Part shown: positions 4,855 through 18,462 of the stretch, piece by piece
Layout: every line of letters starts with the position of its first letter
Position numbering within the stretch: the stretch's first letter is position 1
Source of the DNA: Candidatus Aenigmatarchaeota archaeon
GTDB taxonomy: Archaea; Aenigmatarchaeota; Aenigmatarchaeia; GW2011-AR5; JACRAC01
Direction: 5' to 3'
NCBI GenBank assembly: GCA_039091255.1
Contig: JAWCMQ010000002.1
Coordinates: 142,126-179,405, forward strand
Length of the DNA: 37,280 bases
Notes under the pieces: generated by a model
Database searches by the model: none
The model's input: the letters and a program-made list of their open reading frames with translations, nothing else
What the model was told of the DNA's origin: nothing
Program-made: the position numbers and the translations under genes

Positions 4855-5356
4855 GTGGTGACCTGGCATAGCCCGTCTTATGTAAGCCCTTTTGCTAGCG
4901 CAAAAGCGCTTGCGGAAAAGGAGCGTGTCCCGCTTCCTTTCAAAAGGGCCTTGCAACATTTGTCTAAGCGCTACGTTGATATTCTAACCGCTCTTGTCAC
5001 GATAGCCGCTCATGCCAAAGCGAGAGCGGCTATTGTTGCAAAAGCGGCCGAAATCCCAACCCTCTTGCACCCGCGCGTGCCGGACCCGTTTCAACTTATC
5101 ATAACTGCGAAGCGGCTATTCGTAGAATAACCGCTGAGCAGCTATATGCAACGTCATTCATGCGTCGGTTGCTAAGTGCGTTTCTGTGATCCGGCAACAG
5201 ACTCTCGCCCGTAACCTTAACGGATCGCGCTTTTGCAGGTGCTAATCTAACCGTCCGCCTTTACGCGAACGCGGTTATTTCACATTCCTGCAGAGTGGAC
5301 AGAGCTTCCTCAGCGCTGCTGTTACGCAGAACCGAAGTTGCAGCTCAGGTCACCAC
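4855..5356. ncRNA. ~500-nt structured RNA locus closed by a 12-bp terminal helix; identity and strand unresolved (5S-like motifs on +, RNase P-like motifs on -)
   Basis: 4855-4865 gtggtgacctg is the exact complement of 5346-5356 caggtcaccac. There is no credible ORF. The locus contains one family-A module (4884-4921) and the same hairpin modules as the rRNA spacers. TATA-like boxes lie on both sides (4831-4838 for +, ~5380-5388 for -). Confidence 0.6.
4884..4921 (+). repeat. family-A module copy (only copy in plus orientation)
   Basis: aagcccttttgctagcgcaaaagcgcttgcggaaaagg. AAGC...GCTT outer pairs, CTTTTGC/GCAAAAG hairpin, GCGGAAAAG tail. Confidence 0.85.
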
Positions 5357-5425
5357 TAAATCGAATATCGCCGCAAAGTTAATAAGGTTTGCGAAAACGC
5401 GGCTCTCCAAGAATCTGAGGCGCGG

Positions 5426-5650
5426 CTATCGGTCTTCGAGTATGCGCGATGCGTCGTCCAAAGCGTTCAGCGTCGTCGCCGACTCTTCACTCGCTTGGTT
5501 CGAGCCCATGCGGTACAAAACAAGCTTGCCGCCCTGCTGGCATAACTCAAGATTGTTTCGCTTGAGATAGCTGCCTAAGCCGTTCCTTTTGGTTATTCCG
5601 CGGTCTTTGCAAAGTTCCTCGATGCTTTCATATCGTCCGACAACTTGCAT
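5426..5650 (-). CDS. hypothetical protein (74 aa)
   Basis: ATG-initiated ORF downstream of ogg on the same strand. No motif recognised. Confidence 0.4.
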   Translation of the reverse strand: MQVVGRYESIEELCKDRGITKRNGLGSYLKRNNLELCQQGGKLVLYRMGSNQASEESATTLNALDDASRILEDR

Positions 5651-5754
5651 CCTACGGCTTGGATAGAAGACTTCTTATTTCTTCTTTTTTCCGCATTTCC
5701 CGCACGACATAAAATGCACCTCTCAGTAACCATGGTGAAGCTTCAATTAAAACT

Positions 5755-6384
5755 CTACATTATCTCCTCGTTTCCCGATCGCGACAGCCATATCGCGATG
5801 TCGAGCTCGGCGGGCTTGAGGCCTAACCCGCGGGCGGCTTTGACGAACTTCTTTTCGACGTCCAAATATCTGCGAGGGGTGAGCCCCCCTTTCTCGCCCT
5901 CTTCCTCATTGGTTAGTCCATTTTCGGCAAGCTCTCGCATGATATGCACGTCGAGTATCGCCAGCTCCTCGCCAAGCCCGATGTTTCTGAGGAAATGCGA
6001 TGCCTCCTTGTAGCCGTAGCCCTCCACGTTCTGCACAAGCCAATCGCGCAGCTCGGGCGGCCGTGCATGCATAGCCTGGATTTTGCCGAATATCTCAGAA
6101 AATTTCGCTTGCGCGGCTGCGATATACCTCGCCTTATTTTTAGGAAAGCGTACGCCCGCCAGATGCCCTAATATGTCCTTGTCGCCGGCTGCTTCGAGCA
6201 GGCCGCTTTCTTTCAGCTTATTTATCGCCGCTCTGCATACAGGCGCCTTGCTTTGCGGCGTGCAAAGGCAGAAAAGCAGTTCGAACAGCACGTCGTCGCG
6301 GCTCTGCCACTTGTCCCTTGCAGCCGCGAGCCAGTCGCGTATCAGCTGCTCACGCTTTTGGAATTCTGCGAGAAGTTTGCCCAT
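5755..6384 (-). CDS. ogg: N-glycosylase/DNA lyase, Ogg2-type 8-oxoguanine DNA glycosylase (HhH-GPD)
   Basis: LFCLCTPQSKA...GVRFPNKKA-like...GYGYKEASHFLRNIG...AILDVHI matches the archaeal Ogg (MJ0724-type) pattern. Confidence 0.8.
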   Translation of the reverse strand: MGKLLAEFQKREQLIRDWLAAARDKWQSRDDVLFELLFCLCTPQSKAPVCRAAINKLKESGLLEAAGDKDILGHLAGVRFPKNKARYIAAAQAKFSEIFGKIQAMHARPPELRDWLVQNVEGYGYKEASHFLRNIGLGEELAILDVHIMRELAENGLTNEEEGEKGGLTPRRYLDVEKKFVKAARGLGLKPAELDIAIWLSRSGNEEIM

Positions 6385-6422
6385 CTGTTAAAAAGATGTC
6401 GCAAAGATTAAAACGAGATACG

Positions 6423-6680
6423 CTAAGCAGCCCTGCCGTCTTCGCCGCCGCGAATCGCATTCTTCTTAAGATGTTCGTACATCTTCAGTCCGGCTTCTAC
6501 GGCTTCCGTCCAGAATAGATAGCGGCCTTTGGGTCTCTCATCAAGGGTTGAGCAGACGTCCCATCGGCCATCATCACCTTCGCAAACCCAGATTGCGACG
6601 CTAGGGTACACCTTTTCCCCCATTTTCACGTTCTCGACGTTACCGACGCTATAAACGAACATAACATTCCCTTCTTTCAT
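6423..6680 (-). CDS. hypothetical protein (85 aa)
   Basis: Last gene of a three-gene minus-strand string. No motif recognised. Confidence 0.4.
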   Translation of the reverse strand: MKEGNVMFVYSVGNVENVKMGEKVYPSVAIWVCEGDDGRWDVCSTLDERPKGRYLFWTEAVEAGLKMYEHLKKNAIRGGEDGRAA

Positions 6681-6700
6681 CCTTTAGGAAAACAAATATC

Positions 6701-6829
6701 TTAAGCCCTCTTCTCCTTGCCGCACAGGTTGCAGAACGTCAGGCCGTGCGACTGGACCTGCCAGCCGCGAAAGCCGTCTCCGCAATTGTGGCGACCTAGA
6801 GACCATTCTTTTCTCTTTTTAACTGCCAT
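6701..6829 (-). CDS. 42-aa zinc-ribbon-like mini-protein (not in the ORF track)
   Basis: My translation: MAVKKRKEWSLGRHNCGDGFRGWQVQSHGLTFCNLCGKEKRA. It carries three Cys (the NCGDG cysteine plus the CNLC pair) with nearby His as candidate metal ligands. It sits 12 nt after the upstream gene and 20 nt before the next one. Confidence 0.4.
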   Translation of the reverse strand: MAVKKRKEWSLGRHNCGDGFRGWQVQSHGLTFCNLCGKEKRA

Positions 6830-6841
6830 TACAACCACACC

Positions 6842-7108
6842 TCATTGTTTCGTCCGATAACAACTCTCTAACCGCTGAAGGTAACTCTTCGCCTGCCGCG
6901 CGGCCTCGCCAGGGCGACCATAAATCGTTACGTCGAAAAGTACCTTCTCGCCTGGCCACAAGCTCAGCCTCTGCAAAGCTTGCTCGCCAGCAACGCAGCG
7001 GTAAGACACGTAGCCTTCGTCAGGGTTTTCCACAACTATCGCTCGCTCGCAAGAAACGAGCGCGCCTTTGGCATGACCGGTTTTTGGGTTAGGCACACCA
7101 AACACCAT
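6842..7108 (-). CDS. hypothetical protein (88 aa)
   Basis: ATG ORF with a CTTTATATC TATA-like box ~35 nt upstream (plus 7137-7146). No motif recognised. Confidence 0.45.
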   Translation of the reverse strand: MVFGVPNPKTGHAKGALVSCERAIVVENPDEGYVSYRCVAGEQALQRLSLWPGEKVLFDVTIYGRPGEAARQAKSYLQRLESCYRTKQ

Positions 7109-7192
7109 TTGTTACTATTCCATAGTAGTAAGTAGATATAAAGATTTTGTATGAATCCAAATATATAGGTTAGGTTATACAAGTGAGCGTCG

Positions 7193-7206
7193 AAAGAAAA
7201 TAAAAT
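7193..7206 (-). terminator. oligo-T terminator of the rRNA operon
   Basis: In sense, CATTTTATTTTCTTT lies immediately after the 3' strand of the 23S processing stem. Confidence 0.55.
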
Positions 7207-7226
7207 GAAGCATCATAGGTCTGGAC
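7205..7226 (-). repeat. 3' strand of the 23S processing stem
   Basis: atgaagcatcataggtctggac is the perfect reverse complement of 11000-11021. Confidence 0.85.
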
Positions 7227-7450
7227 TTCCACTATTCTAACCGCCCGCTTTTACGCGAAAGCGGCTATTTTCAAGCGGTTATTATTCGCGGAACCGCGAC
7301 AGCCGCAGCTGGCGCGTTTTGAAGGCTAGCATTGGTGTAGGAGATAGTGGGCTGAGCGCGTCGCCGAGGCTTCGCGCGTACACCCCTTCTCCATAACGGG
7401 TCGTCTTGCCCGTACCGCATGTCTATTTTTGAGAGCGGCTTAGGCCTTAG

Positions 7451-7523
7451 TTCGGCGGATGCTATGTCATGGCTGCCCATCGCCAATTTCTCGGCGGCAG
7501 CTATTGGTACCGACGTAGCAACC
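7451..7523 (-). other. ~73-nt insertion in the 3'-terminal 23S region
   Basis: It splits the conserved CUGAAGGCAU|CUAAG segment. Removing it restores the consensus. Confidence 0.55.
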
Positions 7524-7741
7524 TATGCCTTCAGGCCTTATCCGCCATGGCGTAGCTACCCGGCGATGCCCTGTCGGACAACCGGTACACCAGAGGCCAC
7601 GAGAGGGTGTTCCTTTCGTACTTGCCCTTTCTTTCTCTCAGACACCAGCACCTTCGGCAGATATAGACCAAACTGGCTCACGCCGTTCTGAACCCAACTA
7701 AGGTGCCCTTTTAATCTGTGGACCCCAGCACCCTTGGCTGC

Positions 7742-8153
7742 ATTCAGGTCGCGGACGACATTTTGATAATCCGTTACTCTGTTTGTAAGCGGACTATTCA
7801 ACGGCTGATTCTCTCATCGCTTGTGTTGATAATTCGCTTTGGCTACCTACGCAAAAGCGGACTATACACAAACTCGAAATCCAGTTTGCAGTCTCCTCTA
7901 CCCAAGACGAAGAAAGAAGCTATGCAACTTCTATCTTGACTTCGGCAATCTTGCCGCTCTTTAGCTCAGAAGCTACCCAGTATAGTCATTGGCGATAACG
8001 AGCGCTCGCAAGTGCGAGCTATTCGTTCATCGCCTCGTTCTGGGACGTATATCGTCAACGCTAAAGCTAGCAGATTGTCAGGAATGTAGACCACAAACTT
8101 TTGCTTTGCGGTTTGCAAAGCCACCGTGTCGTTCGCCGTCAGCGACTTGCTGC
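7742..8153 (-). other. ~412-nt ORF-less insertion in 23S domain V
   Basis: It lies between CCUGGCUGU and GCAGCCAAGGGUG, downstream of the GUCGCUGUCGGCU segment. A GCAGC direct repeat sits at both junctions. There is no ORF long enough for a homing endonuclease. Confidence 0.7.
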
Positions 8154-8313
8154 ACAGCCAGGTGAGGACCAGCCGACAGCGACGCCGCAACGCGCGGGGT
8201 CGATACGAACTCTCACCCGCCACGACACCATTATCCCCGTGGTAGCTTTTCTCATGTCACAAGCCCCTCTCTAGAGCGCTTTCTTGATGTCCTCGCGGAT
8301 TTCATGCATTCTG

Positions 8314-8350
8314 TTCTTTCCGCAAGTGCTTTCTTTCAAGAAAGGGCTTA
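8314..8350 (-). repeat. family-A module copy (divergent) in 23S
   Basis: Sense TAAGCCCTTTCTTGAAAGAAAGCACTTGCGGAAAGAA, inserted upstream of GAAAAGCTACCACGGGGATAA. Confidence 0.75.
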
Positions 8351-8962
8351 TCTAAAGGAACTTGCGTATCGCTAGGTCACGCTTTCGCGTTTGGATTCCA
8401 CGCTGGGCGGAATCCAATCAATCCGGCTTTTGCCCTTGCACTCTACAGGCGATTTCTGACCGCCCTGAGCCGAACTTAGAGGACCCTTGATACCCTTTCA
8501 AGGGTGTGCCGCCCCAGCCAAACTGCCCACCTGTTGCTGTCTTCCGCTTTCGCGAAGTTAGCAATACAAGAAAGATAGGGCAGTGTTACATTTTCGACTC
8601 CACCTCAACTTGCGTCAAGGTTTCTACGTCTCCTGCCTACGCTATACAACCTCGCTCGTACCACAACAACAGACTGCAGTAAAGCTCAACGGGGTCTACT
8701 CTTCCCACCGAAGGTCTCCAGCCCAGTCCCTGGAACGATAGTTTCACCGAGTTCCAACCCGGGACAGCGAAGATCTAGTTAATCTATCATGCAGGCCAGC
8801 ATTTAACTGGCAAGGGATTACGCTACCTTAAGACCCTCAGAGTTAGGGCCGGCCTACAGCGGGGCATAGGCAGGTTGTAACCCGCTTTCACACACCGCTA
8901 GTGGCCACGATTCATCGGCTATACAAGGCCTTTGGGCTTAGCAGCCGACTGCGTTTCTTAAC

Positions 8963-9082
8963 CGGCGAAAACAACATGTTTTGGCTGCGATCATTTTGCA
9001 ACATAATCGCAGCAATACGTTCCAATTCGATTGAGGCTGCTAATTCGTCAATCTTGTCGGAACTTTCAGGCAGTTTTCGCCG
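8963..9082 (-). other. ~120-nt insertion in 23S carrying the family-B hairpin
   Basis: Closed by cggcgaaaac (8963-8972) and gttttcgccg (9073-9082). It follows GGACUGUUUAACAAA. Positions 8983-9016 are ~80% identical to 16S 12924-12960. Confidence 0.65.
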
Positions 9083-10284
9083 TTTGTTAAACAGTCCGAT
9101 CTCCCTTGTCACTGCGACCTGCCCATCGCTGAGCAGGCACGGCTTGTACCGAAGGTACGCCGCCAATTTGCCGAATTCCCTGGGTTGGATTCTCTCGAAC
9201 ACCTTCGCCTTCTCGGCGAGGGGCACCTGTGTCGGTTATAAGTACGGTCGTCTGGCGCCCTCCCCCATCCCATTTTCATGGGCCCGTGGAATTGCCCGAA
9301 GTCTGCATACGCAAACCTACTGGCGCCTTCACGCGATTCTCGTCACGACGACACTCCTCGCGCTTCGGCGCTTGAACAGCGCGACGGCGCTGCTCGGGCT
9401 ATCCAAGGGCGTTTGGAATAGGTTCTACGGACGCCAGCCGGCGCAGGAATATTAACCTGCTTCCCTTTCCCAGCCGTCCAGTTAGGAGGCCGGTTAGGAC
9501 CGGCTAACCCCCAGCAGATAATCTTTACTGGGGAAACCTCGCCCCTCAGGTGGTGGAGATTCTCGCTCCACTCTATGCTACTCCCGGCAGGATTCTCATT
9601 GCTGACCGGTCCACAGCTCCTTAAAGAGCCGCTTCTGCCCAGCCAGCACGCCTCCCTACCGCCATGCGCTCCTCGCGAAGCGCATGACCCGCAGTCTCGG
9701 CAGACCGCTTAGTCCCGTCCATTTTCAGGGCCGAGAGCCTCGATGGGTCCGCTGTTACGCGTTGTTTAAATGATGGCTGCTTCTAAGCCTACATCCCCAC
9801 TGTCTAAGACTCCTGACTCCTTTCGTCACTTAGCGGCCGTTTGGGGGCCTTAACTGCAGTCCGGGTTCACGCCCTCGCGGATGCCAAAATTACTCCGGCA
9901 CCCTCACTCCCCGCGCATGCCACGGACGTATTCGGAGTTCGACGAGATTGCTGGAAGTTTCCCTCCTTGGCAACCTAATCGGTGCTCTACCCCGCCCGCT
10001 TAAGCGCGGAGGCTGTACTCACGCACATTTCGGGAGGAACCAGCTATCACCAGATTCGATTGGCTTTTGGTGTTCGCAAACAACATTGCTCGGAACTTGC
10101 GAAGGGCAAATTCCAAACAGTTTCGCTGTTTGCGAATTTCACCCCTAGACCCAGGTCACCCCAAAGGTTTGGACCATAACGGGTACCGGCCCTCGAGGTC
10201 GCTTTCGCGACCCTTCAGCCTACCCAGGCCTAGATCATCTGGTTTCGGGTCTCAAACCACTGACTAACGCCCTTTCGGACTCGC

Positions 10285-10333
10285 TCTAGCGCAACCTTTT
10301 CCGCCAGCGCTTTTGCGCCAGCAAAAAGGGCTG
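10285..10333 (-). repeat. family-A module copy in 23S domain II region (core 10296-10333)
   Basis: Sense CAGCCCTTTTTGCTGGCGCAAAAGCGCTGGCGGAAAAGGTTGCGCTAGA, between GCCGTAGCGAAA and GCGAGTCCGAAAGGGCG. Confidence 0.8.
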
Positions 10334-10999
10334 TTTCGCTACGGCTTTCGCCTTGCCAGTGGAATGAACTCCCTGCCCCGTTTTTCAAAACGGACGCCGG
10401 TTTACTCTCCGCTTGCGCGGAGCCTTCGCCGGCTAACTGTAGCTGCCTGGTTTCAGGCTCTTTTCAGCGCGTGTTGCCGCTGCTTTTCAGCTTTCCGTCA
10501 CCGTACTAGTGCGCTATCGGACTTGAGGAGTGTTTAGGATTGGAGGTAGATCCCCCCGCATTCCTACTCCCTATCAAGGGAATAGTACTCTGGATACCGC
10601 CAATCTCACTTCTCGGTTTCGCCTACGAGGCTTTCACTCTCTATGGCAGGGCTTTCCAGCCCACTTCGGCTCGCCGAGCGAGAGAGTGCGACGGTCCAAA
10701 CCCCACATCCCACCGCGCTCGTCGCGCGGCGGTTCGGTTTGTCCTATACGGCTTTCAGTCGCCCTTACTTACCGCATCGCGTTTGCTTTCTCTTCCTGCG
10801 CTTACTAAGATGTTTCAATTCTGCGCGTTCGCCTTCACGGCCAGGTTTAACCCCAGCCTCGAATAGAAGGATGTCCCATTAGGCAATCCGTGGTTCAAAG
10901 GCTGCATGCGCCTCGCCACGGCTTATCCCAGCTTGCCAGGACCTTCATCGCCTCTCAAGCCAAGCCATCCTCCAGACAGCATGGGAGCTAGCTTCCTTC

Positions 11000-11021: not shown

Positions 11022-11226
11022 CGCCGTGCCGACCGGGAAGTCAGCGCGGCTTTACAGCCGCCATGCAAGCAAAGCTTGCGGGCGGTCAGCGATTCGCAGA
11101 GTGCGACCTCCGCCGAACCAAATAGTCAGAGAAACAGCGTGATGAAATCGCCGAAACGATGCCTTCCGCGCTGCACCACACGTGCCTGCCCGCACGAGTG
11201 GGACTCTGACCAGCTCGGTTCTTATC

Positions 11227-11250
11227 ATAACTGCGCGAAGCGCAGCTATT
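11227..11250 (-). repeat. 24-nt spacer hairpin (copy 1), between tRNA-Ala and 23S
   Basis: ataactgcgcgaagcgcagctatt is identical to 11638-11661. It forms a 10-bp helix with a G.U pair in minus sense and an A.C mismatch in plus sense. Confidence 0.75.
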
Positions 11251-11309: not shown

Positions 11310-11426
11310 TGGACCCGGCGGGATTCGAACCCGCAGCCTCTACCTGCCATGTTTTCCGCCGGCGCTTTTTGCGTCAGCAAAAAGGGCCGTTGCAAGGGTA
11401 GCGATCTTCCATTGATCTACAGGCCC
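11310..11426 (-). tRNA. tRNA-Ala(UGC) with a 44-nt intron at the canonical 37/38 site
   Basis: Sense GGGCCTG TA GATC AATGGAA GATC G CTACC CTTGCA [intron] A GGTAG AGGCT GCGGG TTCGAAT CCCGC CGGGTCC A. It has the G3:U70 alanine identity pair and sits in the usual 16S-23S spacer position. 117 - 44 = 73 nt. No encoded CCA. Confidence 0.85.
11346..11389 (-). repeat. tRNA-Ala intron = family-A module
   Basis: Sense (A)CGGCCCTTTTTGCTGACGCAAAAAGCGCCGGCGGAAAACATGGC. Outer pairs are CGGC/GCCG. Confidence 0.8.
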
Positions 11427-11661: not shown

Positions 11662-11882
11662 CGTCCGCCTTTGCGGGCAAAGGTCTAGCATCGCCCCCTC
11701 TTTTGATCAAACTTTTCTTTTAGAAAAGTTTATGGAGGTGATCCAGCCGCACGTTCCCGTACGGCTACCTTGTTACGACTTAGCCCCTCTTGCGGGCATC
11801 TGGTTCGACTTATTCCTGCTCGCCGCATGCTCCGCATGCGGAAGTCTCAGCGTAAGCCTCACCAGAGACCCACTCAATTGGC

Positions 11883-11920
<38 letters not shown>

Positions 11921-11927
11921 GCGAGAG

Positions 11928-12053
11928 ATTTCACAGCAGCAAGCGCATCATTGAGCTGCTACAAAGTGCGCGCAAAGCTCAGTGTCAAGCCTCTACATTC
12001 TTCAACGCTCGCGCTCACCTTTGGCCGGGTTAATCATCTGGCACTTGCCGCTA
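11928..12053 (-). other. ~126-nt insertion in the loop of the GCGAGGG/CTCTCGC helix upstream of TGAATACG (16S)
   Basis: The consensus TCATCA loop is expanded by an unrelated structured segment. It is not family A. Confidence 0.55.
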
Positions 12054-12149
12054 TGATGACCCTCGCTTACTAGGGATTCCGGCTTCATGAGGGCGGGTTG
12101 CAGCCCTCAATCCGAACTAGGCGCAGGTTTAAGAGATTGGCTTCCCCTC

Positions 12150-12226
12150 TCCCGGTCCTTTCCTTTCTCACAGACTCGCGGAAAGTTTTCCGCAAGCGCT
12201 TTCTTTTGTGAAAAGAAAGGGCTTAC
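12150..12226 (-). repeat. 16S insertion with family-A core (12185-12225)
   Basis: It splits GACCCCG|...|GAGGGGAAGCCAATCTC. Core sense is TAAGCCCTTTCTTTTCACAAAAGAAAGCGCTTGCGGAAAAC. Confidence 0.75.
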
Positions 12227-12407
12227 GGGGTCGCATCCCATTGTCCTGCGCATTGTAGGCCCCGTGTATCCCAAGCAAATTCGGGCCATACTGACCTGCC
12301 GTCGCCCACTCCTTCCTCTGATTTAGCACCAGCGGTCCTGCTAGAGTGCACGCCGTCCGGAGACAGCGTTAGCAACTAGCAGCGTGGGTCTCGCTCGTTT
12401 CCTGACT

Positions 12408-12459
12408 ATCTGCAGCCTTGCTGGCGTTTCCGCCAGCGCTTTTCCGCAGAAAAGGGCTG
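12408..12459 (-). repeat. 16S insertion, family A
   Basis: It splits the universal CCTGTTA|AGTCAGG.AACGAGCG. Sense CAGCCCTTTTCTGCGGAAAAGCGCTGGCGGAAACGCCAGCAAGGCTGCAGAT. Confidence 0.85.
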
Positions 12460-12611
12460 TAACAGGACAGCTCACGCCACGAGCTGACGACGGCCATGCA
12501 GCTCCTCTCAGCTTGTCAGGTAAGCCCTTCAGACTGACCCTCATCCTGCTGTCTTTGCTGGTAAGGTTCCCGGCGTTGTATCCAATTAAACCGGAGCCTC
12601 CACCCCTGGTA

Positions 12612-12657
<46 letters not shown>

Positions 12658-12755
12658 CCCCAGGTGGCCCGCTTAACACCTTCGCTCCGACACTGCAGGT
12701 CCTCGTAGGACCTGCAACATCAAGCGGGCATCGTTTACAGCGTGGACTACTGGGG

Positions 12756-12826
12756 TATTTAGGGCCTCTTCATGACTGCGCTGCGGAGTTCTTTTCCGCA
12801 GGCGCTTTTCTTTCAAGAAAAGGGCC
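12756..12826 (-). repeat. 16S insertion, family A core plus 3' extension
   Basis: It splits the universal GGATTAGATA|CCCCAGTAGTCC. Sense GGCCCTTTTCTTGAAAGAAAAGCGCCTGCGGAAAAGAACTCCGCAG...GGCCCTAAATA. Confidence 0.85.
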
Positions 12827-12900
12827 TATCTAATCCCAATCGCTCCCCACGCTTTCATCCCTCACCGTCGGATCTGTCCTAGTGCGGCGCCTTCGCCATT

Positions 12901-12977
12901 CACCCAGAAGGAAATGATGTCATAACTGCGACTATTTGTAATACCATAATCGCAGCAATTTTGCTCACTTCCGTCCG
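12901..12977 (-). other. 16S insertion carrying the family-B hairpin
   Basis: It splits GGACCACCTGA|ATGGCGAAGGCG. Positions 12924-12960 share cataatcgcagcaat and the flanking sequence with 23S 8983-9016. Confidence 0.7.
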
Positions 12978-13006
12978 TCAGGTGGTCCGTTGGAGATTAA
13001 AGGAAT

Positions 13007-13051
13007 GTAAAGTCTTTTCCGCCAGCGCTTTTCGCGCAGCGAAAAGGGCTG
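13007..13051 (-). repeat. 16S insertion, family A
   Basis: It splits GGTAGGGGTAAAA|ATTCCTTTAATC. Sense CAGCCCTTTTCGCTGCGCGAAAAGCGCTGGCGGAAAAGACTTTAC. Confidence 0.85.
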
Positions 13052-13385
13052 TTTTACCCCTACCTCCAACGTACCCCGCACCTCTACCAGTCCCTAGTCC
13101 CGCAGTATCCCTGGCACGCCCTACATTCCAGTATGCGCAGCATCGCTGGAAATTGCGCTTGCGCATATGTCAGCTGCAGGATTTCACCAGAGACTTGCGG
13201 AACCGGCTACGGATGCTTTAGACCCAATAATCGTGAGAACCACTTGTGGCGCGGTTATTACCGCGGCGGCTGGCAACCGTCTTGCCCACCACTTATTCGC
13301 CAAGCTGTTTACACTTGGCAAAAGCCGCAGGAAACCTGCGGCACTCAGGGTCCCCGCCCTCACCATTGCTGGTATTCCCCCAGCA

Positions 13386-13440
13386 CTTCTTGATTTTCCG
13401 CCAGCGCTTTTGCAAAGCGCTAGCAAGCAAGAAGGGCTGT
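13386..13440 (-). repeat. 16S insertion, family A
   Basis: It splits GCGCGAAACCTTCCCAA|TGCTGGGGG. Sense ACAGCCCTTCTTGCTTGCTAGCGCTTTGCAAAAGCGCTGGCGGAAAATCAAGAAG. Confidence 0.8.
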
Positions 13441-13680
13441 TTGGGAAGGTTTCGCGCCTGCTGCGCCCCGTAAGGCCTTGATTCATGTCTCAGAATCAAT
13501 CTCCGGGCTATCACTCTCATGACCCGCACCGATTATCGCCTGGTCGGGCATTTACCCCGACTACGAGCTAATCGGCCGCAGCCTCATCCTTGGGCCCCTC
13601 AGGTTTCAGCAAGGGTGCGTTCTGGCAACCCTTTTGGAGCTCGCATCGCGTTGGCGTTGGAAGCTCGCTTGCTTCACTCT

Positions 13681-13711
13681 TTCTGCCAGCGCTTTCTCCC
13701 AGAAAGGGCTG
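13681..13711 (-). repeat. 16S insertion, family A core (V2 region; true limits uncertain)
   Basis: Sense CAGCCCTTTCTGGGAGAAAGCGCTGGCAGAA. Confidence 0.65.
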
Positions 13712-14285
13712 TTTCCAGCCTCCCTCACCTATGGGGTATTGAGCCCACGTTTGCGGGTGTATCCCCCACCCAAGGGTAGATTAGCTACGTGTTACTGAGC
13801 AGTGCGCCGAGGTCTTGCACCTCTCGACTCGCATGGCTTAGCCGGACCCTGATAGCAGTTCTCTCCGGCGGGATCAACCAGAATTTCGGGTTCGCACTTT
13901 ATTCTAACTAATTTTGCGAAGCAAAATTAGCTATTCCGTTATCCCTGCATTTGGTTCGCCGTTCGTGCCTTCATTGCGCGCAAGCAAGCTCGCGCGTTCA
14001 TCTTCGGCTGTATCATAATTGCCCGCTCCAGATTTGCTGGCGGCAATCATTCCACAACCATCATCGCCCCGCCCGAAGGCACAGGCTCGGAAAACAACCG
14101 CAGTCTGCAACGACTTGTGGTTGAAAGAGATAGATAGTGCTATCTAGTCTCTAATCTTTGACGCGCCGCCGATACCAGACGGCAACGCAAATGCGGGATC
14201 TCCGCAAAAGCTCCCCCGCAAGATTCCTGAACCCCCAGCATGCCTTCCCTTTCACGCTGAGCAAGCTATTCATCAGAAGAAAAAG

Positions 14286-14583: not shown

Positions 14584-14604
14584 ACCTATACTTGCGGAGA
14601 AAAA

Positions 14605-15495
14605 CTATAAGTGTAAACTCTGCCTGAAAAAGAGGTCTGCAAGTTTTTCGGATGATATCTTCCCAGCAGTCTCCATGATTATGTCAGCCGCTTTTGCGCC
14701 GTCCATCAAAATTTTGGAAAATGTCGCATCAACATATTCGGAGGGTAGCGTTCCTTTCTCCTCGCAATACAGAATATTATTCAAGACGTTCGATTCGTCC
14801 ACGCCGAGCTCTTTGAGTTCTCCGCCGCTGACATAGACGAGTTGGGAACGGCCGCCTACACCTATGTTCTTCCACGCCGAACGTGTCGCCTGCATGAGGA
14901 TTTTCGCTCCTTTAGGGAGTGGAATGTTATCTCTATCATTAGGGTCCATGGCGTTAATTGCATCTCCGATAACTATGTGAGCCCTGTCCGAGCCCGAACC
15001 AATGGTGTGGAATCTGTTAAACGTCCACGTGCGACTTGTGCCCGGGTAACTGATGGTGAAAATTTCAAAGTTGCCATCTTTGTCAAGGCCTCCAAGCATA
15101 AGCCCAACGTCTTGGCTTCTTGGGTCGCTTAGGGCTTCGAAAAGTGTTTTGTGGATGTTCATTTCTAAAGCGTTCGGCCTCTTGAAGTCTTCCCATGTCG
15201 CATTGTATCGCTTCAACATCGACTCCTCGAATTTTTCGTCGCGACACTTTAGATAAGCGTTTTTGGCAATGCCAAGAATTTCACGGACGTCATCCGTTTT
15301 GGCCCGCGATGAAATCGCTGCTATAATTTCATCAGCATAATGCGCATCCCCAGCCATTCCGATAAAGGACCGTGTCGAGGCAACTCTGCGAATTTTTTTA
15401 ATAAAATCGTAGGTTCGGCCCCCGATGCTTTCGCGCTCATCGGCGCATCCGATGCCGGAATTTTTGTCAAGTTTCAGATAACTGACAACCGTCAT
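14605..15495 (-). CDS. divergent proteasome-beta/HslV-like Ntn hydrolase (T1-type), 296 aa
   Basis: It begins M-T-V-V (Thr directly after Met). Asp at about mature position 18 (GCADERES), Lys at about 32-33 (FIKKIRRV), and a later HTIGSGSD (GSG) motif. Confidence 0.5.
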   Translation of the reverse strand: MTVVSYLKLDKNSGIGCADERESIGGRTYDFIKKIRRVASTRSFIGMAGDAHYADEIIAAISSRAKTDDVREILGIAKNAYLKCRDEKFEESMLKRYNATWEDFKRPNALEMNIHKTLFEALSDPRSQDVGLMLGGLDKDGNFEIFTISYPGTSRTWTFNRFHTIGSGSDRAHIVIGDAINAMDPNDRDNIPLPKGAKILMQATRSAWKNIGVGGRSQLVYVSGGELKELGVDESNVLNNILYCEEKGTLPSEYVDATFSKILMDGAKAADIIMETAGKISSEKLADLFFRQSLHL

Positions 15496-15593
15496 TTTAG
15501 CACCATTTAGTCACCAATAGGAAGTGATGTTTTAAAAAGTTTCCAACGCCCCCCACCTAAACGATTTATATCGCCGTCGGTAGAACATATCGC

Positions 15594-16097
15594 ATGGCAA
15601 TCCACCTCGCCCAGCGCATCGGCGTCTTCGCTGATGTTTCTAACCTTTACCATTCTGCAAAGCACCTTTACGGTGCCAAAGTTAATTACAAGGAGCTTCT
15701 CAAGGCGGCTACGCGCGACCGCGCGCTCATCCGAGCCATTGCGTATGTAATCCGTGCCGAGGAAATGGGCGAAAGCAAGTTCTTTGAAGCACTAGGCCAC
15801 TCGGGGTGGGAGGTCAAGGCAAAGGACTTGCAGGTGTTTGCTGGCGGCGCAAAGAAAGGCGACTGGGATACAGGCATAGCAATGGACGCAATCGAACTTG
15901 CGCCCAAGCTTGACGTCGTCGTACTCGTCAGCGGCGATGGCGACTACGTGCCATTGGTCGAGCACCTTAAGCGCGCGTCGGCATGCCGCGTCGAAGTGAT
16001 CGCATTCGGCAAATCAGCATCGGGTAAGCTGATAGAAGCCGCCGACGAGTTCATCGACCTAGACAAGGAGCCGAAGCGTTTTCTGATGAAAAAATGA
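15594..16097 (+). CDS. NYN/LabA-like domain protein
   Basis: IGVFADVSNLY...DWDTGIAMDAIE...VVLVSGDGDYVPLVEHLK is the LabA/NYN pattern. TTTATAT box at about 15565. Confidence 0.8.
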   Translation: MAIHLAQRIGVFADVSNLYHSAKHLYGAKVNYKELLKAATRDRALIRAIAYVIRAEEMGESKFFEALGHSGWEVKAKDLQVFAGGAKKGDWDTGIAMDAIELAPKLDVVVLVSGDGDYVPLVEHLKRASACRVEVIAFGKSASGKLIEAADEFIDLDKEPKRFLMKK

Positions 16098-16242: not shown

Positions 16243-16374
16243 TGCGGGGGACGAGATTTGAACTCGCGCACGCACTAAGCGACAGGCTCCTCAAGCCTGC
16301 TCCTATAGCCGCCCTCTCTGCTGGCGCCTTATGCGCCCGCAAAAAGATCATTGGCCAGGCTCGGACACCCCCGC
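16243..16374 (-). tRNA. tRNA-Leu(GAG) with a 46-nt D-loop intron
   Basis: Sense GCGGGGG TG TCC GAGCCTGGCCAA [intron] A GGA G CAGGC TTGAGGA GCCTG TCGCTTAGTGCGTGC GCGAG TTCAAAT CTCGT CCCCCGC A. 132 - 46 = 86 nt, class II. Confidence 0.8.
16305..16350 (-). repeat. tRNA-Leu D-loop intron, divergent family-A relative
   Basis: Sense TGATCTTTTTGCGGGCGCATAAGGCGCCAGCAGAGAGGGCGGCTAT. Confidence 0.6.
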
Positions 16375-16435
16375 GCCTTAACCGATTTAAAGACATGAGC
16401 CTTAACAGATTTAAGCATCGTGGTCGCGTGAAACA

Positions 16436-17775: not shown

Positions 17776-17809
17776 TGCTCCCAGGGGGATTTGAACCCCC
17801 GTCCAGGGC

Positions 17810-17823
17810 TTTCCACTCTTTCA
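17810..17823 (-). other. tRNA-Glu intron 3 (14 nt, at or next to 37/38)
   Basis: Sense TGAAAGAGTGGAAA. Its GAAAG can pair with the anticodon-loop CUUUC. Confidence 0.5.
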
Positions 17824-17830
17824 TCGAAAG

Positions 17831-17892
17831 CTTCCGTCCGCACGCCGAAGCGTGCAGCATTCGGCTTTCTCAACTCCTTCGCAGAGCGAAGG
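17831..17892 (-). repeat. tRNA-Glu intron 2 (62 nt, between positions 31 and 32), degenerate family-A-like start
   Basis: Sense CCTTCGCTCTGCGAAGGAGTTGAGAAAGCC...GCACGCTTCGGCGTGC...GGAAG. Confidence 0.5.
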
Positions 17893-17912
17893 GCCCTTAT
17901 CCTTGACCGGGA

Positions 17913-17975
17913 TGTCCAGCCTTGCTCCTCTTTTCCGCCGGCGCATTGGCGTGCGCCACGCGAGCAAAAGGGCTG
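17913..17975 (-). repeat. tRNA-Glu intron 1 (63 nt, D-loop), family A
   Basis: Sense CAGCCCTTTTGCTCGCGTGGCGCACGCCAATGCGCCGGCGGAAAAGAGGAGCAAGGCTGGACA. Confidence 0.7.
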
Positions 17976-18060
17976 CTAGACGATGGGAGCCTGTGCAAGC
18001 CAGGGTGCCAATCACCCAGGCGAGTGGGCCGGGGCAGAATCGAACTGCCAATCTCCTGCT

Positions 18061-18101
18061 TTCCTTTTCGCCAGCACTTTGCGCGAAGCGTAAAGTGCTG
18101 C
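18061..18101 (-). repeat. tRNA-Val anticodon-loop intron, family A variant
   Basis: Sense GCAGCACTTTACGCTTCGCGCAAAGTGCTGGCGAAAAGGAA. The usual C.C mismatch is replaced by an A-U pair. Confidence 0.8.
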
Positions 18102-18121
18102 TGTAAGGCAGGCGTCATGCC

Positions 18122-18235
18122 ATTTTGCGTCGGAAGCTCTAGCTCCTTTCCGCCAGCACTTTCGCTCGAAAGCCGAGGCTTTCGGCGACTCAGGAAAGCT
18201 TCGCTTTTGCTGAGTCGCGGTTAGCAAAAGGGCTG
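18122..18235 (-). repeat. tRNA-Val D-loop intron, long family-A member
   Basis: Sense CAGCCCTTTTGCTAACC...(internal hairpins)...CGAAAGTGCTGGCGGAAAGGAGCTAGAGCTTCCGACGCAAAAT. Confidence 0.7.
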
Positions 18236-18252
18236 CACTAGACCACCGGCCC

Positions 18253-18326
18253 TGCGTTTTCTGCCAGCGCTTTCGTGAGACGAGTTCGCTTAGAGCGAAC
18301 GAGTTCATCCCAGCAAAAGGGCTTAG
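18253..18326 (-). repeat. family-A module filling the tRNA-Ser/tRNA-Val spacer
   Basis: Sense CTAAGCCCTTTTGCTGGGATGAACTCGTTCGCTCTAAGCGAACTCGTCTCACGAAAGCGCTGGCAGAAAACGCA. It starts 3 nt after the Ser discriminator and ends about 5 nt before Val +1. Confidence 0.75.
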
Positions 18327-18462
18327 CGCTGAGGGAGGGATTTGAACCCTCATGGGCTTGCGCCCGCCGCCTAACCGCAGGCTTTCCGCTGGCGCTTTTT
18401 GCTCTGCGCCAGGAAAAGGGCCATAGCAGAGCGGTGCCGTGACCTGGTTTGGCTACCTCAGC
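18327..18462 (-). tRNA. tRNA-Ser(GCU) with a ~51-nt intron at 37/38
   Basis: Sense GCTGAGG TA GCC AAACCAGGTCAC GGC A CCGCT CTGCTA [intron] A GGCGG CGGGCGCAAGCCCAT GAGGG TTCAAAT CCCTC CCTCAGC G. It has a long variable arm and discriminator G. 136 - 51 = 85. Confidence 0.8.
18373..18423 (-). repeat. tRNA-Ser intron, family A
   Basis: Sense TGGCCCTTTTCCTGGCGCAGAGCAAAAAGCGCCAGCGGAAAGCCTGCGGTT. Outer pairs are UGGC/GCCA. Confidence 0.8.

What the first reader, a model, noticed from the sequence alone, without database searches (positions are those of the whole stretch)
4884..18423. One conserved, covarying ~35-nt RNA module occurs 17 times, only in stable-RNA loci (16S, 23S, all five tRNAs, a tRNA spacer, one further RNA locus)
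In RNA sense the module reads 5'-N1N2GC-C-CUUU(U)-[variable hairpin or longer insert, 3 to ~80 nt]-(A)AAAG-C-GCN2'N1'-GCGGAAA(A)G-3'.

Copies (plus-strand coordinates):
- 16S: 13681-13711, 13386-13440, 13007-13051, 12756-12826, 12408-12459, 12150-12226.
- 23S: 10285-10333, 8314-8350.
- tRNA-Ala 11346-11389; tRNA-Leu 16305-16350 (divergent).
- tRNA-Glu 17913-17975 and a degenerate copy at 17831-17892.
- tRNA-Val 18061-18101 and 18122-18235; tRNA-Ser 18373-18423.
- Ser/Val spacer 18253-18326; and 4884-4921.

The outer 4-bp helix covaries:
- CAGC/GCUG in most copies.
- AAGC/GCUU in 12185-12225, 8314-8350 and 4884-4921.
- CGGC/GCCG in tRNA-Ala, UGGC/GCCA in tRNA-Ser, AGGC/GCCU in 12756-12826.
- Only two copies (the spacer and the Glu D-loop) have one mismatch.
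- In tRNA-Val 18061-18101 the conserved C.C mismatch becomes an A-U pair (GCACUUU/AAAGUGC).

The inner hairpin changes sequence but stays paired (CUUUUCGC/GCGAAAAG, CUUUUUGC/GCAAAAAG, CUUUCU/AGAAAG, CUUUCUUUU/AAAAGAAAG).

All 16 copies inside minus-strand RNA genes are in sense orientation. I saw none in protein-coding sequence.

Established knowledge: archaeal tRNA and rRNA introns are removed by the splicing endonuclease at bulge-helix-bulge motifs. Sequence-related introns at several tRNA sites in Thermoproteales have been read as intron transposition.

What looks unusual here is a single module shared across 16S, 23S, tRNAs and a spacer at this density, with an invariant purine-rich GCGGAAAAG tail that is not part of a textbook BHB.
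Basis: partly seen in the sequence, partly recalled or inferred. Interest (0 to 1): 0.92.

Follow-up and report, generated by a model that had tools for sequence, protein, structure and literature searches.

The report
Shared hairpin element inside archaeal introns
About fifteen short insertions in this archaeon's ribosomal RNA, transfer RNA and RNase P RNA genes carry the same small hairpin-plus-tail element, most of them look like removable introns, and the element turns out to be a repeat scattered through many archaeal phyla that seems not to have been described.

Summary
A covariance model built only from other genomes finds 13 copies in the window at E<0.01. A fourth-teenth copy scores E=0.11 and the spacer copy matches by motif, giving 15 of the 17 claimed. 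All lie in 4884-18423 and none is in coding sequence.

The copies sit in insertions relative to the Rfam 16S, 23S, tRNA and RNase P models. At those boundaries 11 of 19 insertions form a 4-bp helix with two 3-nt bulges and a flanking helix, against 2.6±1.6 for random placements. They are most likely bulge-helix-bulge (BHB) introns.

The module is not the BHB itself. It starts 0-1 nt after the 5' splice site and supplies the intron-side helix. GCGGAAA is a linker.

It occurs in more than 115 loci from at least eight archaeal lineages. There it also lies after tRNA 3' ends and stop codons, sometimes antisense, nested or tandem, and often with duplicated flanks. A relative about 80% identical in DNA has a different module variant at the same 16S site.

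The best reading is a small mobile repeat that makes or colonises spliceable introns. How it moves, and what the invariant tail does, are unknown.

The parts
11733..13884 (-). 16S rRNA gene, 2152 nt against a 1478-nt model, with nine insertions
   Evidence: Rfam RF01959, 1234 bits
7321..10996 (-). 23S rRNA gene, 3676 nt against a 2987-nt model, with at least four or five insertions
   Evidence: Rfam RF02540, 2191 bits; MAFFT against Halarchaeum 23S
4858..5353 (-). RNase P RNA, expanded to 496 nt against a 288-nt model
   Evidence: Rfam RF00373, 38 bits (below the gathering score), full-length match, E=2.4e-9 on the sub-region
13620..13712 (-). 16S intron a (93 nt); module at 13678-13711
   Evidence: Central helix H CUGG/CCAG 4/4; intron-side helix h2 CAGCCCU/AGGGUUG 8 bp; CM 33.9 bits; orthologous intron in L130
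13357..13440 (-). 16S intron b (about 83 nt); module partly disrupted; boundaries uncertain by about 3 nt
   Evidence: Rfam insertion of 82 nt; H 3/4, exon-side helix h1=4; CM 25.9 bits at 13393-13422
13005..13051 (-). 16S intron c (47 nt); module at 13014-13051
   Evidence: H GUAA/UUAC 4/4, h1=4; CM 46.2 bits
12757..12827 (-). 16S intron d (71 nt); module at 12791-12827
   Evidence: H UUAG/CUAA 4/4, h2 GGCC/GGCC; CM 43.2 bits
12408..12459 (-). 16S intron e (52 nt); module at 12425-12459
   Evidence: H CUGU/GCAG 4/4, h2 AGCC/GGCU; CM 44.1 bits
12149..12223 (-). 16S intron f (about 75 nt); module at 12185-12226
   Evidence: H CCCG/CGGG 4/4; CM 42.3 bits; its module variant recurs in L130 at site b
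11929..12053 (-). 16S intron without the module (125 nt), textbook hBHBh'
   Evidence: H 4/4, h1=8, h2=8
13126..13173 (-). 16S insertion without the module (about 48 nt), weak BHB
   Evidence: Rfam insertion of 49 nt; H 3-4, short flanking helices
12889..12976 (-). 16S insertion without the module (about 88 nt), no convincing BHB
   Evidence: Rfam insertion of 89 nt
10286..10334 (-). 23S intron a (49 nt); module at 10296-10333
   Evidence: H AGCG/CGCU 4/4, h1=3, h2=5; CM 46.1 bits
8269..8349 (-). 23S intron b (about 81 nt); module at 8315-8349
   Evidence: H UUAG/CUAG 4/4, h1=4, h2=3; CM 31.8 bits
10067..10137 (-). 23S intron without the module (71 nt)
   Evidence: H 4/4, h2=8
8957..9083 (-). 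23S intron without the module (127 nt), textbook BHB
   Evidence: H 4/4, h1=4, h2=8
11310..11426 (-). tRNA-Ala(UGC) in the 16S-23S spacer; intron 11346-11390 at position 37/38; module at 11351-11389
   Evidence: Rfam tRNA, 56.6 bits; H 3/4, h1=5; CM 42.4 bits
18327..18462 (-). tRNA-Ser(GCU); intron 18373-18423 at position 37/38; module at 18381-18423
   Evidence: Rfam tRNA, 44.3 bits; H CUGC/GCGG 4/4, h1=5; CM 38.3 bits
18025..18252 (-). tRNA-Val(UAC). It has a D-loop insertion at 18122-18235 (long or nested module, BHB unclear) and a 37/38 intron at 18061-18101 (module variant with A-U in place of C.C)
   Evidence: Read from sequence; CM 17.6 bits at 18145-18175 and 11.5 bits at 18063-18100
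17776..17990 (-). tRNA-Glu. It has a D-loop intron at 17912-17975 (module at 17932-17975) and a second insertion near 17831-17892 that does not match the module
   Evidence: Read from sequence. H GUCU/GGAC and h2 AGCC/GGCU were worked out by hand; the script's best solution differs by 1-2 nt. CM 15.6 bits
16243..16374 (-). tRNA-Leu(GAG) with a 46-nt D-loop insertion at 16305-16350; not a recognisable module copy
   Evidence: Rfam tRNA, 40.5 bits; H GGCC/GGCU 4/4, h1=2; no CM hit
18253..18326 (-). Module with a 45-nt loop that fills the spacer between tRNA-Ser and tRNA-Val
   Evidence: Tail motif at 18258-18273; sequence
4884..4950 (+). Plus-strand module (4884-4920) followed by an inverted copy of its 5' arm (AAGCCCTTTTG...CAAAAGGGCCTT). 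This is the 64-nt insertion in the minus-strand RNase P RNA gene
   Evidence: CM 44.3 bits; Rfam alignment; fold -35.8 kcal/mol

Best explanation
The window comes from a DPANN-type archaeon. Its nearest 16S match among the fetched loci is an Aenigmatarchaeota MAG. Its rRNA, tRNA and RNase P RNA genes carry about 20 short insertions.

[quoted passage not shown] The splicing endonuclease EndA would cut them in two 3-nt bulges set 4 bp apart, and RtcB would join the exons.

Thirteen to fifteen insertions begin, 0-1 nt after the 5' cut, with one conserved element:
- a 4-bp outer helix (N1N2GC/GCN2'N1')
- a C.C mismatch
- a variable inner hairpin that starts CUUU/AAAG
- a single-stranded GCGGAAA(A)G tail

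The element is not the splice signal. Its 5' arm provides the intron-side helix next to the 5' bulge. It does this either through its own outer helix or by pairing N2GCC with a GGCN2' placed just before the exon-complementary 4 nt. The tail is a linker.

The element is one member of a dispersed, structure-conserved repeat family present in many archaeal lineages. The family behaves like a small non-autonomous mobile element. It lands in transcribed DNA, and inside essential RNA genes only copies that can be spliced out, which means sense copies, survive. This resembles what 'introner' transposons do for spliceosomal introns.

Shown here: insertion sites, BHB potential, covariation, distribution, dispersed near-identical copies, duplicated flanks, site polymorphism and a module swap between relatives.

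Inferred, not shown: actual splicing, the mode of transposition (DNA-level or RNA-level), and what binds the invariant tail.
For: Insertions relative to curated models:
- 16S has nine insertions and tRNA-Ala has 47 nt at position 37/38.
- 23S insertions were located by alignment to a Halarchaeum 23S.
- RNase P RNA has a 64-nt insertion.

BHB test:
- H=4/4 plus a flanking helix of 4 bp or more occurs at 11 of 19 boundaries. Random placements in the operon give 2.6±1.6, with a maximum of 8 in 200 trials.
- Module-less introns in the same genes are textbook hBHBh'.
- The 5' cut falls 0-1 nt before N1 in the window and in strict-BHB tRNA introns of other genomes.

Family-wide distribution:
I estimated about 8 hits by chance from database size; this is my arithmetic, not a tool output.
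- All hits but 3 are archaeal, and the 3 bacterial hits fail the N1N2 pairing.
- Covariation of the outer helix.

Mobile-element behaviour:
- Near-identical composite copies of about 100 nt sit at unrelated loci in one Thermoplasmata MAG.
- Flanks duplicated over 12-58 nt abut the element: L034, L038, L084 (restores the ribosome-binding site of the next gene), L046 (an intact tRNA follows a 5' fragment), L012, L045, L003 and L099.
- Nested copies occur.
- The relative L107 lacks window introns b, c, e, f and three module-less ones. It has its own module intron in the 16S 530 loop.
- The relative L130 carries, at the orthologous 16S site b, the module variant of window intron f (81% over 70 nt). 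The 3' 35 nt of that intron stay orthologous.

Not an assembly artefact: the same sequence was assembled independently in Logan and in an NCBI MAG at 99.98% identity or better.
Against: - No RNA data exist, so splicing is inferred from structure only.
- 8 of 19 insertions have only relaxed BHB motifs or none.
- GCGGAAA is invariant across at least eight phyla. That is unusual for a merely selfish repeat and points to a conserved function or partner.
- No transposase, reverse transcriptase or ORF-bearing autonomous version was found. No copy occurs in viral contigs.
- The duplicated flanks vary in length and some have diverged. This fits no known transposition chemistry cleanly.
- G.U pairs do not clearly favour the sense strand (32 against 22). 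RNA-level selection on the hairpin is therefore not demonstrated.
- The loci were found with an exact pattern, so contexts and conservation are biased by how they were ascertained.
Confidence: 0.55

Rival explanations
1. The module is a host cis-acting RNA motif. It could be a binding site for a conserved archaeal protein, or a processing or stability element, possibly one that folds its purine tail back on the hairpin as a triplex. It would be kept by selection wherever it occurs: introns, tRNA trailers and intercistronic spacers of highly expressed operons. Its spread would then reflect function rather than transposition. This reading does not exclude mobility.
For: - GCGGAAA and the GC-C-CUUU/AAAG-C-GC frame are invariant across at least eight phyla.
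- Orientation is mostly sense relative to the upstream gene. About 20 copies follow sense ORF ends against about 8 antisense, and about 9 tRNA trailers are sense against 1 antisense. The ORF counts come; the tRNA-trailer counts were made by eye from the flanks listed.
- Copies sit exactly on stop codons and 0-3 nt after tRNA ends, in ribosomal-protein, rRNA, tRNA and RNase P genes.
- The number of A in the tail equals the number in the stem's 3' strand in 80 of 130 copies, against 44.6 expected.
- A three-way change occurs between orthologues: CUUUCU/AGAAAG/GAAAGA becomes CUUUCC/GGAAAG/GAAAGG.
- Mirror extension in polypurine stems reaches up to 14 nt.
Against: - Copies lie antisense in a Thermococcus mbh operon and in the RNase P RNA gene.
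- Duplicated flanks, tandem and nested copies, and near-identical dispersed copies are marks of insertion, not of a conserved regulatory site.
- Presence varies between close relatives.
- A function inside introns that are discarded is not obvious.
- There is no Rfam family and no literature.
- The mirror signal is confounded by base composition and shared descent.
Confidence: 0.25
2. The element is a DNA-level single-strand hairpin repeat of the REP/RAYT or IS200/IS605-derived kind. A conserved heptamer (TTTCCGC on the other strand) next to an imperfect palindrome would be recognised by a tyrosine HUH transposase acting in trans. N2'N1' would act as a guide that pairs with the target dinucleotide N1N2.
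For: - The form fits: about 35 nt, an imperfect palindrome with a fixed mismatch, and a conserved flanking motif.
- Many copies are extragenic and lie just behind genes.
- N1N2 lies inside the duplicated target in L034 and L084, as if it came from the target, and it always pairs with N2'N1'.
- Occasional inverted doublets occur: the RNase P insertion and L012.
- Copies share one orientation within each locus.
Against: - IS200/IS605 and REP elements make no target duplication, yet here 12-58-nt duplicated flanks are common.
- There is no GTAG or CGTC head.
- No associated transposase gene was looked for or seen.
- In my paper search for REP/RAYT in archaea nothing on archaeal RAYTs turned up; that RAYTs are described only from bacteria is also my own recollection.
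- The exon-complementary segments of the intron copies are not explained.
Confidence: 0.12
3. The insertions are expansion segments that stay in the mature RNAs. The tRNA genes that carry them would then be pseudogenes or unusual tRNAs.
For: - The RNase P insertion folds as one flush hairpin with no convincing BHB.
- Two 16S insertions have poor BHBs.
Against: - Insertions interrupt universally conserved loops: anticodon loop at 37/38, D-loops, the 16S 690 loop and the 16S 1090 region.
- BHB motifs are strongly enriched at the exact boundaries.
- All five tRNAs in the window would be non-functional.
Confidence: 0.05

Closest known systems
Archaeal bulge-helix-bulge (BHB) introns of tRNA and rRNA, cut by EndA and joined by RtcB
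   Same: They are insertions in tRNA (37/38, D-loop, T-loop) and rRNA. They have a 4-bp helix flanked by two 3-nt bulges at the exon-intron junctions. Relaxed forms also occur.
   Different: Known BHB introns share structure at the junctions but no conserved internal sequence across sites and phyla. Here one 35-nt core recurs in 16S, 23S and tRNAs of one genome and in many phyla, and it also occurs outside introns. Nine insertions in one 16S gene is unusually dense. From memory, 16S genes of Thermoproteales carry only a few introns each; I did not read the review that surfaced in the search (PMC4496867).
Sequence-related tRNA introns at different positions in Thermoproteales, read as intron transposition (Fujishima et al. 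2010, cited from memory; discussed in PMC4090602, which I did not open)
   Same: Similar intron sequences occur at non-homologous sites within a genome, which implies intron gain by some copying process.
   Different: Those introns are confined to tRNA genes of one crenarchaeal order. They have no defined hairpin-plus-tail core, no rRNA or intergenic copies, and no duplicated flanks.
tRNA gene disruption by an integrating mobile element in Caldiarchaeum (Sugahara et al. 2012, PMC3293823)
   Same: Intron gain and a stray 5' tRNA fragment are explained by insertion of mobile DNA. L046 here shows the same picture: a 5' tRNA fragment, then the element, then an intact tRNA.
   Different: That element is 1.8 kb and encodes a recombinase. 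This one is 35-110 nt with no ORF.
Introner elements of algae and fungi (transposons that create spliceosomal introns; from memory)
   Same: A short non-autonomous repeat inserts into genes and is tolerated because it is spliced. It carries part of the splice signal, and the rest comes from the target.
   Different: The splicing machinery differs (spliceosome against a protein endonuclease). Introners have defined terminal inverted repeats and fixed-length target duplications. No mechanism is known here.
Bacterial REP elements and REPINs mobilised by RAYT transposases (PMC2817692, PMC3116915; surfaced, not read)
   Same: Both are 20-40-nt imperfect palindromes with a conserved motif at one end. 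Both are abundant, lie mostly just behind genes, and sometimes form inverted doublets.
   Different: REPs are bacterial, have a GTAG or CGTC head, make no target duplication and are never found inside rRNA or tRNA genes. No RAYT is linked here.

Membership tests
Archaeal BHB intron | Extra sequence relative to the conserved RNA, at a point that interrupts the mature structure | tested here: met
   Rfam alignments of 16S, tRNA-Ala and RNase P RNA. The 23S Rfam alignment was cut off before the insertion sites, so 23S insertions rest on MAFFT against Halarchaeum 23S.
Archaeal BHB intron | A 4-bp central helix flanked by two 3-nt bulges on opposite strands, with at least one outer helix, at the two junctions | tested here: met
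   Met at 11 of 19 insertions, against 2.6±1.6 at random placements. The other 8 are relaxed or unclear (16S-b, n49, n89, 16S-f, Ala, Val1, Val2, Leu).
Archaeal BHB intron | Excision by the splicing endonuclease and exon ligation in vivo | not testable with these tools
   No RNA-seq data are available. Junction reads and circular intron reads would be needed.
Archaeal BHB intron | The genome encodes an EndA able to cut relaxed motifs (alpha2beta2 or epsilon2 type) | not tested
   No EndA was found among the ten window ORFs scanned against Pfam; the remaining window ORFs were not scanned. The rest of the genome is not available here.
REP / REPIN-RAYT | Short imperfect palindrome with a conserved GTAG or CGTC head | tested here: not met
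   The palindrome is present, but the conserved flank is GCGGAAA at the 3' side (TTTCCGC on the other strand).
REP / REPIN-RAYT | A single-copy RAYT gene flanked by the repeats | not tested
   Only 8-kb windows around copies were held.
IS200/IS605-derived palindromic element | Insertion without target duplication, next to a fixed tetra- or pentanucleotide | tested here: not met
   Duplicated flanks of 12-58 nt occur. The target is only weakly biased (N2=A in 66 of 82 copies).
Integron attC site | R''/R' core sites RYYYAAC ... GTTRRRY | tested here: not met
   These cores are absent from the consensus. Only the position behind ORFs and the variable loop resemble attC.
CRISPR repeat | Regular array of repeats separated by unique spacers | tested here: not met
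   Copies are dispersed. The only arrays (L003, L045) repeat the flank as well.
Kink-turn / box C/D RNA | 3-nt bulge followed by tandem G.A/A.G pairs; box C RUGAUGA and box D CUGA | tested here: not met
   No GA lies 5' of the outer helix and no C or D boxes are present (sequences).
Any Rfam 15 family | Match to a curated covariance model | tested here: not met
   There were no hits at module positions at the gathering score in the window or in 20 loci. There was no credible hit at E up to 10 on an isolated copy.

The most novel reading that the evidence does not exclude
A pan-archaeal, structure-conserved miniature mobile element creates bulge-helix-bulge introns when it inserts into rRNA, tRNA and other transcribed genes. 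It would be an archaeal counterpart of eukaryotic introners. Its invariant purine tail may fold back on the hairpin as a base-triple structure, recognised by an as yet unknown conserved factor.
Probability: 0.4. Interest if true: 0.9.

Novelty: new variant of a known kind. Interest (0 to 1): 0.8.

Why it matters
How archaeal BHB introns arise and move to new sites is an open question. Current ideas rest on a few similar tRNA introns in one order and on homing endonucleases in large rRNA introns.

This finding offers a defined 35-nt element that marks recently gained introns in rRNA and tRNA, and that also exists as free insertions with duplicated flanks. That makes the question testable in three ways:
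- Gains and losses can be counted between strains.
- The insertion chemistry can be read from the flanks.
- Splicing can be assayed on small substrates.

It also has practical consequences. The introns break tRNA finders: ARAGORN found none of the five tRNAs. They also lengthen the 16S gene by 45% and interrupt conserved stretches of the gene, which I would expect to affect primer sites and to bias surveys and annotation of DPANN archaea; primer sites were not checked here. A covariance model of the module would flag such introns directly.

Tried and rejected
- Known RNA family: no Rfam hit at the gathering score or at the lenient setting.
- Kink-turn, box C/D, hammerhead or other small ribozyme cores: the defining nucleotides are absent on inspection.
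- CRISPR array: suggested by three copies at a 71-nt period in L003. The 'spacers' are identical copies of the gene's 3' end, so it is a tandem duplication.
- Viral origin: no hit in 2.9 million viral contigs.
- Autonomous version with an ORF in the hairpin loop: not seen among 137 3' halves, but the loci were selected for short loops.
- Literature: exact-sequence search and five topic searches gave nothing on this element.
- Exon-complementary 4 nt (Hb) derived from a target duplication: works only for near-palindromic targets such as the T-loop UUCGAA. It fails for anticodon-loop and most rRNA introns (worked out by hand).
- G.U against A.C asymmetry to decide between an RNA and a DNA hairpin: 32 against 22 G.U pairs, which is not decisive. 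The antisense fold is actually more stable.
- Tail pairing with the hairpin's 5' strand by Watson-Crick rules: works only for mirror-symmetric runs (C-Un-C with G-An-G). It fails for L035 and for the window/L130 change.
- MAFFT on full-length copies misaligned the 5' arm. I therefore trimmed loops to 6 nt for the model.
- Relatives found through the neighbouring glycosyltransferase: only one close relative (L130). The 38-48% relatives have no module in their flanks.

Full report
**What is in the window**

Rfam places an archaeal rRNA operon on the minus strand:
- 16S at 13884..11733, 2152 nt against a 1478-nt model
- tRNA-Ala at 11426..11310
- 23S at 10996..7321, 3676 nt against 2987 nt

It also places two further tRNAs, Ser at 18462..18327 and Leu at 16374..16243. 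At a lenient threshold a full-length but weak RNase P RNA match appears at 5353..4858 (38 bits). ARAGORN finds no tRNA at all.

By reading the sequence I also placed tRNA-Val (18252..18025) and tRNA-Glu (17990..17776). The window matches a Logan contig at 99.995% and an NCBI MAG contig (GCA_039090995.1) at 99.98% over the parts they cover. It is therefore not an assembly accident. Its closest 16S stretch among the fetched loci is from an Aenigmatarchaeota MAG (87.6% over 178 nt).

**Checking the observation**

The tail motif AAAGYGCNNGCRRAAA, with up to one mismatch, occurs 15 times against 0.44 expected.

To avoid circularity I built a covariance model only from copies found in other genomes, with loops trimmed to six bases so that MAFFT could align them. 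I ran it over the whole window with filters off. It returns 13 hits at E<0.01, all inside 4884-18423. One more hit scores E=0.11 (tRNA-Val 18063-18100). Nothing else scores better than E=0.3.

The spacer copy at 18253-18326 has a 45-nt loop, so only the motif search detects it. The tRNA-Leu insertion and the second tRNA-Glu insertion do not match. In total 15 of the 17 claimed copies stand.

The covariation of the outer helix is strong in 82 independent copies. N1-N1' reads CG 47, AU 18, UA 7, GC 6. N2-N2' reads AU 66, GC 11.

One correction is needed. The copy at 4884-4920 is on the plus strand, antisense to the RNase P RNA gene. There it forms most of a 64-nt insertion.

**Are the segments introns?**

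The Rfam alignments show nine insertions in 16S (94, 82, 49, 48, 89, 72, 55, 78 and 127 nt) and 47 nt after position 37 of tRNA-Ala. Alignment of the 23S to a Halarchaeum 23S shows insertions of about 49, 71, 127 and 81 nt, plus others. Six of the nine 16S insertions and two of the 23S insertions carry the module.

I scored every pair of candidate cut sites within a few bases of these boundaries for the BHB geometry. The scheme was four exon bases (Ha) paired with four intron bases (Hb), each followed by a 3-nt bulge cut after its second base, plus an exon-side helix h1 and an intron-side helix h2.

Eleven of 19 insertions reach H=4/4 with h1 or h2 of at least 4 bp. The same search at random places in the operon gives 2.6±1.6, with a maximum of 8 in 200 trials.

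The three best motifs belong to introns without the module:
- 16S 12053..11929: h1=8, h2=8
- 23S 9083..8957: h1=4, h2=8
- 23S 10137..10067: h2=8

This genome therefore clearly holds ordinary BHB introns, and the module is not required for them.

Among module introns the clearest are:
- 16S-a: CUGG/CCAG, h2 8 bp
- 16S-c: GUAA/UUAC, h1 4
- 16S-d and 16S-e
- 23S-a: AGCG/CGCU, h1 3, h2 5
- 23S-b
- tRNA-Ser: CUGC/GCGG, h1 5

For 16S-c and 16S-e, removing the predicted intron restores the consensus loop sequences. This is my reading.

The remaining insertions have relaxed motifs or none. These are 16S-b, 16S-f, Ala, Val, Leu and two module-less 16S insertions. Splicing itself is inferred, because there are no RNA data.

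**What the module does inside the intron**

The predicted 5' cut lies 0-1 nt before N1 in the window. It lies immediately before N1 in the strict-BHB tRNA introns of other genomes. The module therefore always forms the extreme 5' end of the intron.

Its outer helix can serve as h2, but GCGGAAA then sits as an 8-12-nt bulge between h2 and Hb. Many introns offer an alternative. The sequence GGCN2' lies just 5' of Hb and pairs with N2GCC, giving a canonical uninterrupted h2. This occurs in 16S-a, 16S-d, 16S-e, 23S-a, Glu and the Woesearchaeota T-loop introns with ...GGCU-UGAA-AG|.

**The wider picture**

I scanned one genome per GTDB species for GCCCTTT-N(3-33)-AAAGCGCNNGCGGAAA, which has 21 fixed bases. 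By my own estimate from database size about 8 chance hits were expected.

All but three loci are archaeal:
- many Aenigmatarchaeota
- Woese-, Pace- and Nanoarchaeia
- Micrarchaeota and Iainarchaeota
- Altiarchaeota
- Hadesarchaea
- Thermococcus
- Thermoplasmata and Methanomassiliicoccales

The three bacterial hits fail the N1N2 pairing. No viral contig has the pattern, no Rfam family matches it, and the sequence does not occur in the searchable literature.

The contexts are not confined to stable RNAs:
- tRNA T-loop, anticodon-loop and D-loop introns.
- Positions 0-3 nt after tRNA 3' ends.
- Positions overlapping stop codons, where TAA|GCCC uses AA as N1N2. One example is the position behind the Rpp29 and S17 genes inside an Aenigmatarchaeota ribosomal-protein operon.
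- Antisense copies inside a Thermococcus mbh operon, next to a duplicated mbhK 3' end.
- Three tandem 71-nt units, each made of a gene's 3' end plus the module, in Altiarchaeum.

About 8% of copies in other genomes form strict BHBs, against 1.4% when downstream sequences are swapped between copies.

**Signs of insertion**

The upstream flank is often repeated after the element. The mean longest direct repeat is 7.6 against 6.2 in permutations, with outliers of 12-58 nt that abut N1.

Individual cases:
- In L084 a 14-nt duplication re-creates the ribosome-binding site and start of the next gene.
- In L046 the first roughly 20 nt of a tRNA are repeated, so an intact tRNA follows the element.
- In L034 a 39-nt duplication includes N1N2.

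One Thermoplasmata MAG holds near-identical copies of a composite about 100 nt long, set in unrelated flanks. In that composite the module is nested in a diverged copy of itself.

Intron sites differ between relatives. L107 lacks seven of the window's nine 16S insertions. It has its own module intron in the 530 loop and a 717-nt insertion elsewhere.

The closest relative found, L130, is about 80% identical in DNA and shares 16S sites a and b. At site b it carries the module variant of window intron f (81% over 70 nt), while the last 35 nt remain orthologous to window intron b. The module is therefore a unit that can be exchanged or re-inserted on its own.

**An unexplained regularity in the tail**

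The number of A after GCGG equals the number of A in the stem's 3' strand in 80 of 130 distinct copies, against 44.6 expected.

In copies with polypurine stems the tail goes on to repeat that strand in reverse order, for up to 14 nt. Between the window and L130, orthologous intron a changes in three places together. The stem CUUUCU/AGAAAG with tail GAAAGA becomes CUUUCC/GGAAAG with tail GAAAGG.

Watson-Crick pairing does not explain this pattern. A purine strand folded back antiparallel to the purine strand of the helix (A.A-U and G.G-C triples) would explain it. However, the signal is confounded by base composition and shared descent, and I could not test structure. I report it as a lead, not a finding.

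**Interpretation**

The best-supported account has three parts. The insertions are BHB introns. Their shared core is a member of a dispersed archaeal repeat family that behaves like a small non-autonomous mobile element. Inside essential RNA genes only spliceable sense copies persist.

The main rival is that the module is a host RNA motif with a conserved partner. That rival is not exclusive of mobility, and the invariance of GCGGAAA across phyla and the sense bias favour it.

A REP/RAYT-like or IS200/IS605-like single-strand DNA mechanism fits the form of the element and the target-like behaviour of N1N2. It does not fit the long duplicated flanks. An RNA-mediated route (reverse splicing followed by reverse transcription) would explain the sense bias and the preference for highly expressed RNAs. 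No evidence here bears on that route.

The RNase P copy is antisense and folds as one flush hairpin without a BHB that keeps the conserved ACAUAAG. Not every insertion needs to be an intron.

**Limits**

- The external loci were found with an exact pattern, so conservation and context frequencies are biased.
- Only 8-kb windows were held.
- The EndA type, copy number per genome and any associated protein remain unknown.
- Several intron boundaries are uncertain by 1-3 nt.

Noticed in passing
window 11632-11660 and 11221-11249 (minus strand); variant near 5095-5125; L130 about 815-870 (minus strand): There is a second hairpin repeat, AUAGCUGCGCUUCGCGCAGUUAU[G/C]AUA[A/G]G. It flanks tRNA-Ala in the 16S-23S spacer. 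A variant lies in an RNase P RNA insertion, and another variant forms an extra 16S intron in the close relative L130. It may be a second intron-forming element family.
   Followed up: partly
window 4858-5353 (minus strand): The RNase P RNA is expanded to 496 nt against a 288-nt model, with insertions of about 54, 26, 93 and 64 nt. Its Rfam score of 38 bits is well below the gathering score of 84, so standard annotation would miss it.
   Followed up: partly
L052, L092, L096, L105 (Thermoplasmata MAG AUK033); L103, L086: A near-identical composite repeat about 100 nt long, with the module nested after GAGCCCTTTCTTCA, sits at unrelated loci. Diverged module variants also occur (…AAAGCCCUCGGGGAAAG, and in L084 5715-5765 …AAAGCCCUACUGGAAAG). 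The family is therefore wider than the exact pattern used in the scan.
   Followed up: partly
L003 4860-5075; L045 1-130: There are tandem arrays in which the unit is the 3' end of the upstream sequence plus the module (71-nt period in Altiarchaeum). The element seems to promote local duplication.
   Followed up: partly
L099 300-1250 (Thermococcus MAG): Two antisense copies lie in the mbhJ-K-L region. One sits beside a diverged duplicate of the last roughly 50 nt of mbhK, so the insertion replaced the gene's 3' end.
   Followed up: partly
window 14590-15594 against L130: The relative L130 lacks this stretch (ORF 14605..15495, with a weak proteasome-like Pfam hit). In L130 the 16S leader directly abuts the NYN-domain gene.
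   Followed up: no
window 7381-7581 (minus strand): MAFFT against Halarchaeum 23S suggests about 200 extra nt near the 3' end of the 23S. This was not analysed and may be partly misalignment.
   Followed up: no
L107 about 480-1197: There is a roughly 717-nt insertion in the 16S of an Aenigmatarchaeota MAG, at a site that is uninterrupted in the window (near window 12568). It may be a large intron with an ORF.
   Followed up: no
window 17783-17838 (minus strand): The lenient Rfam tmRNA hit (20.5 bits) is simply the 3' part of tRNA-Glu and is spurious.
   Followed up: yes
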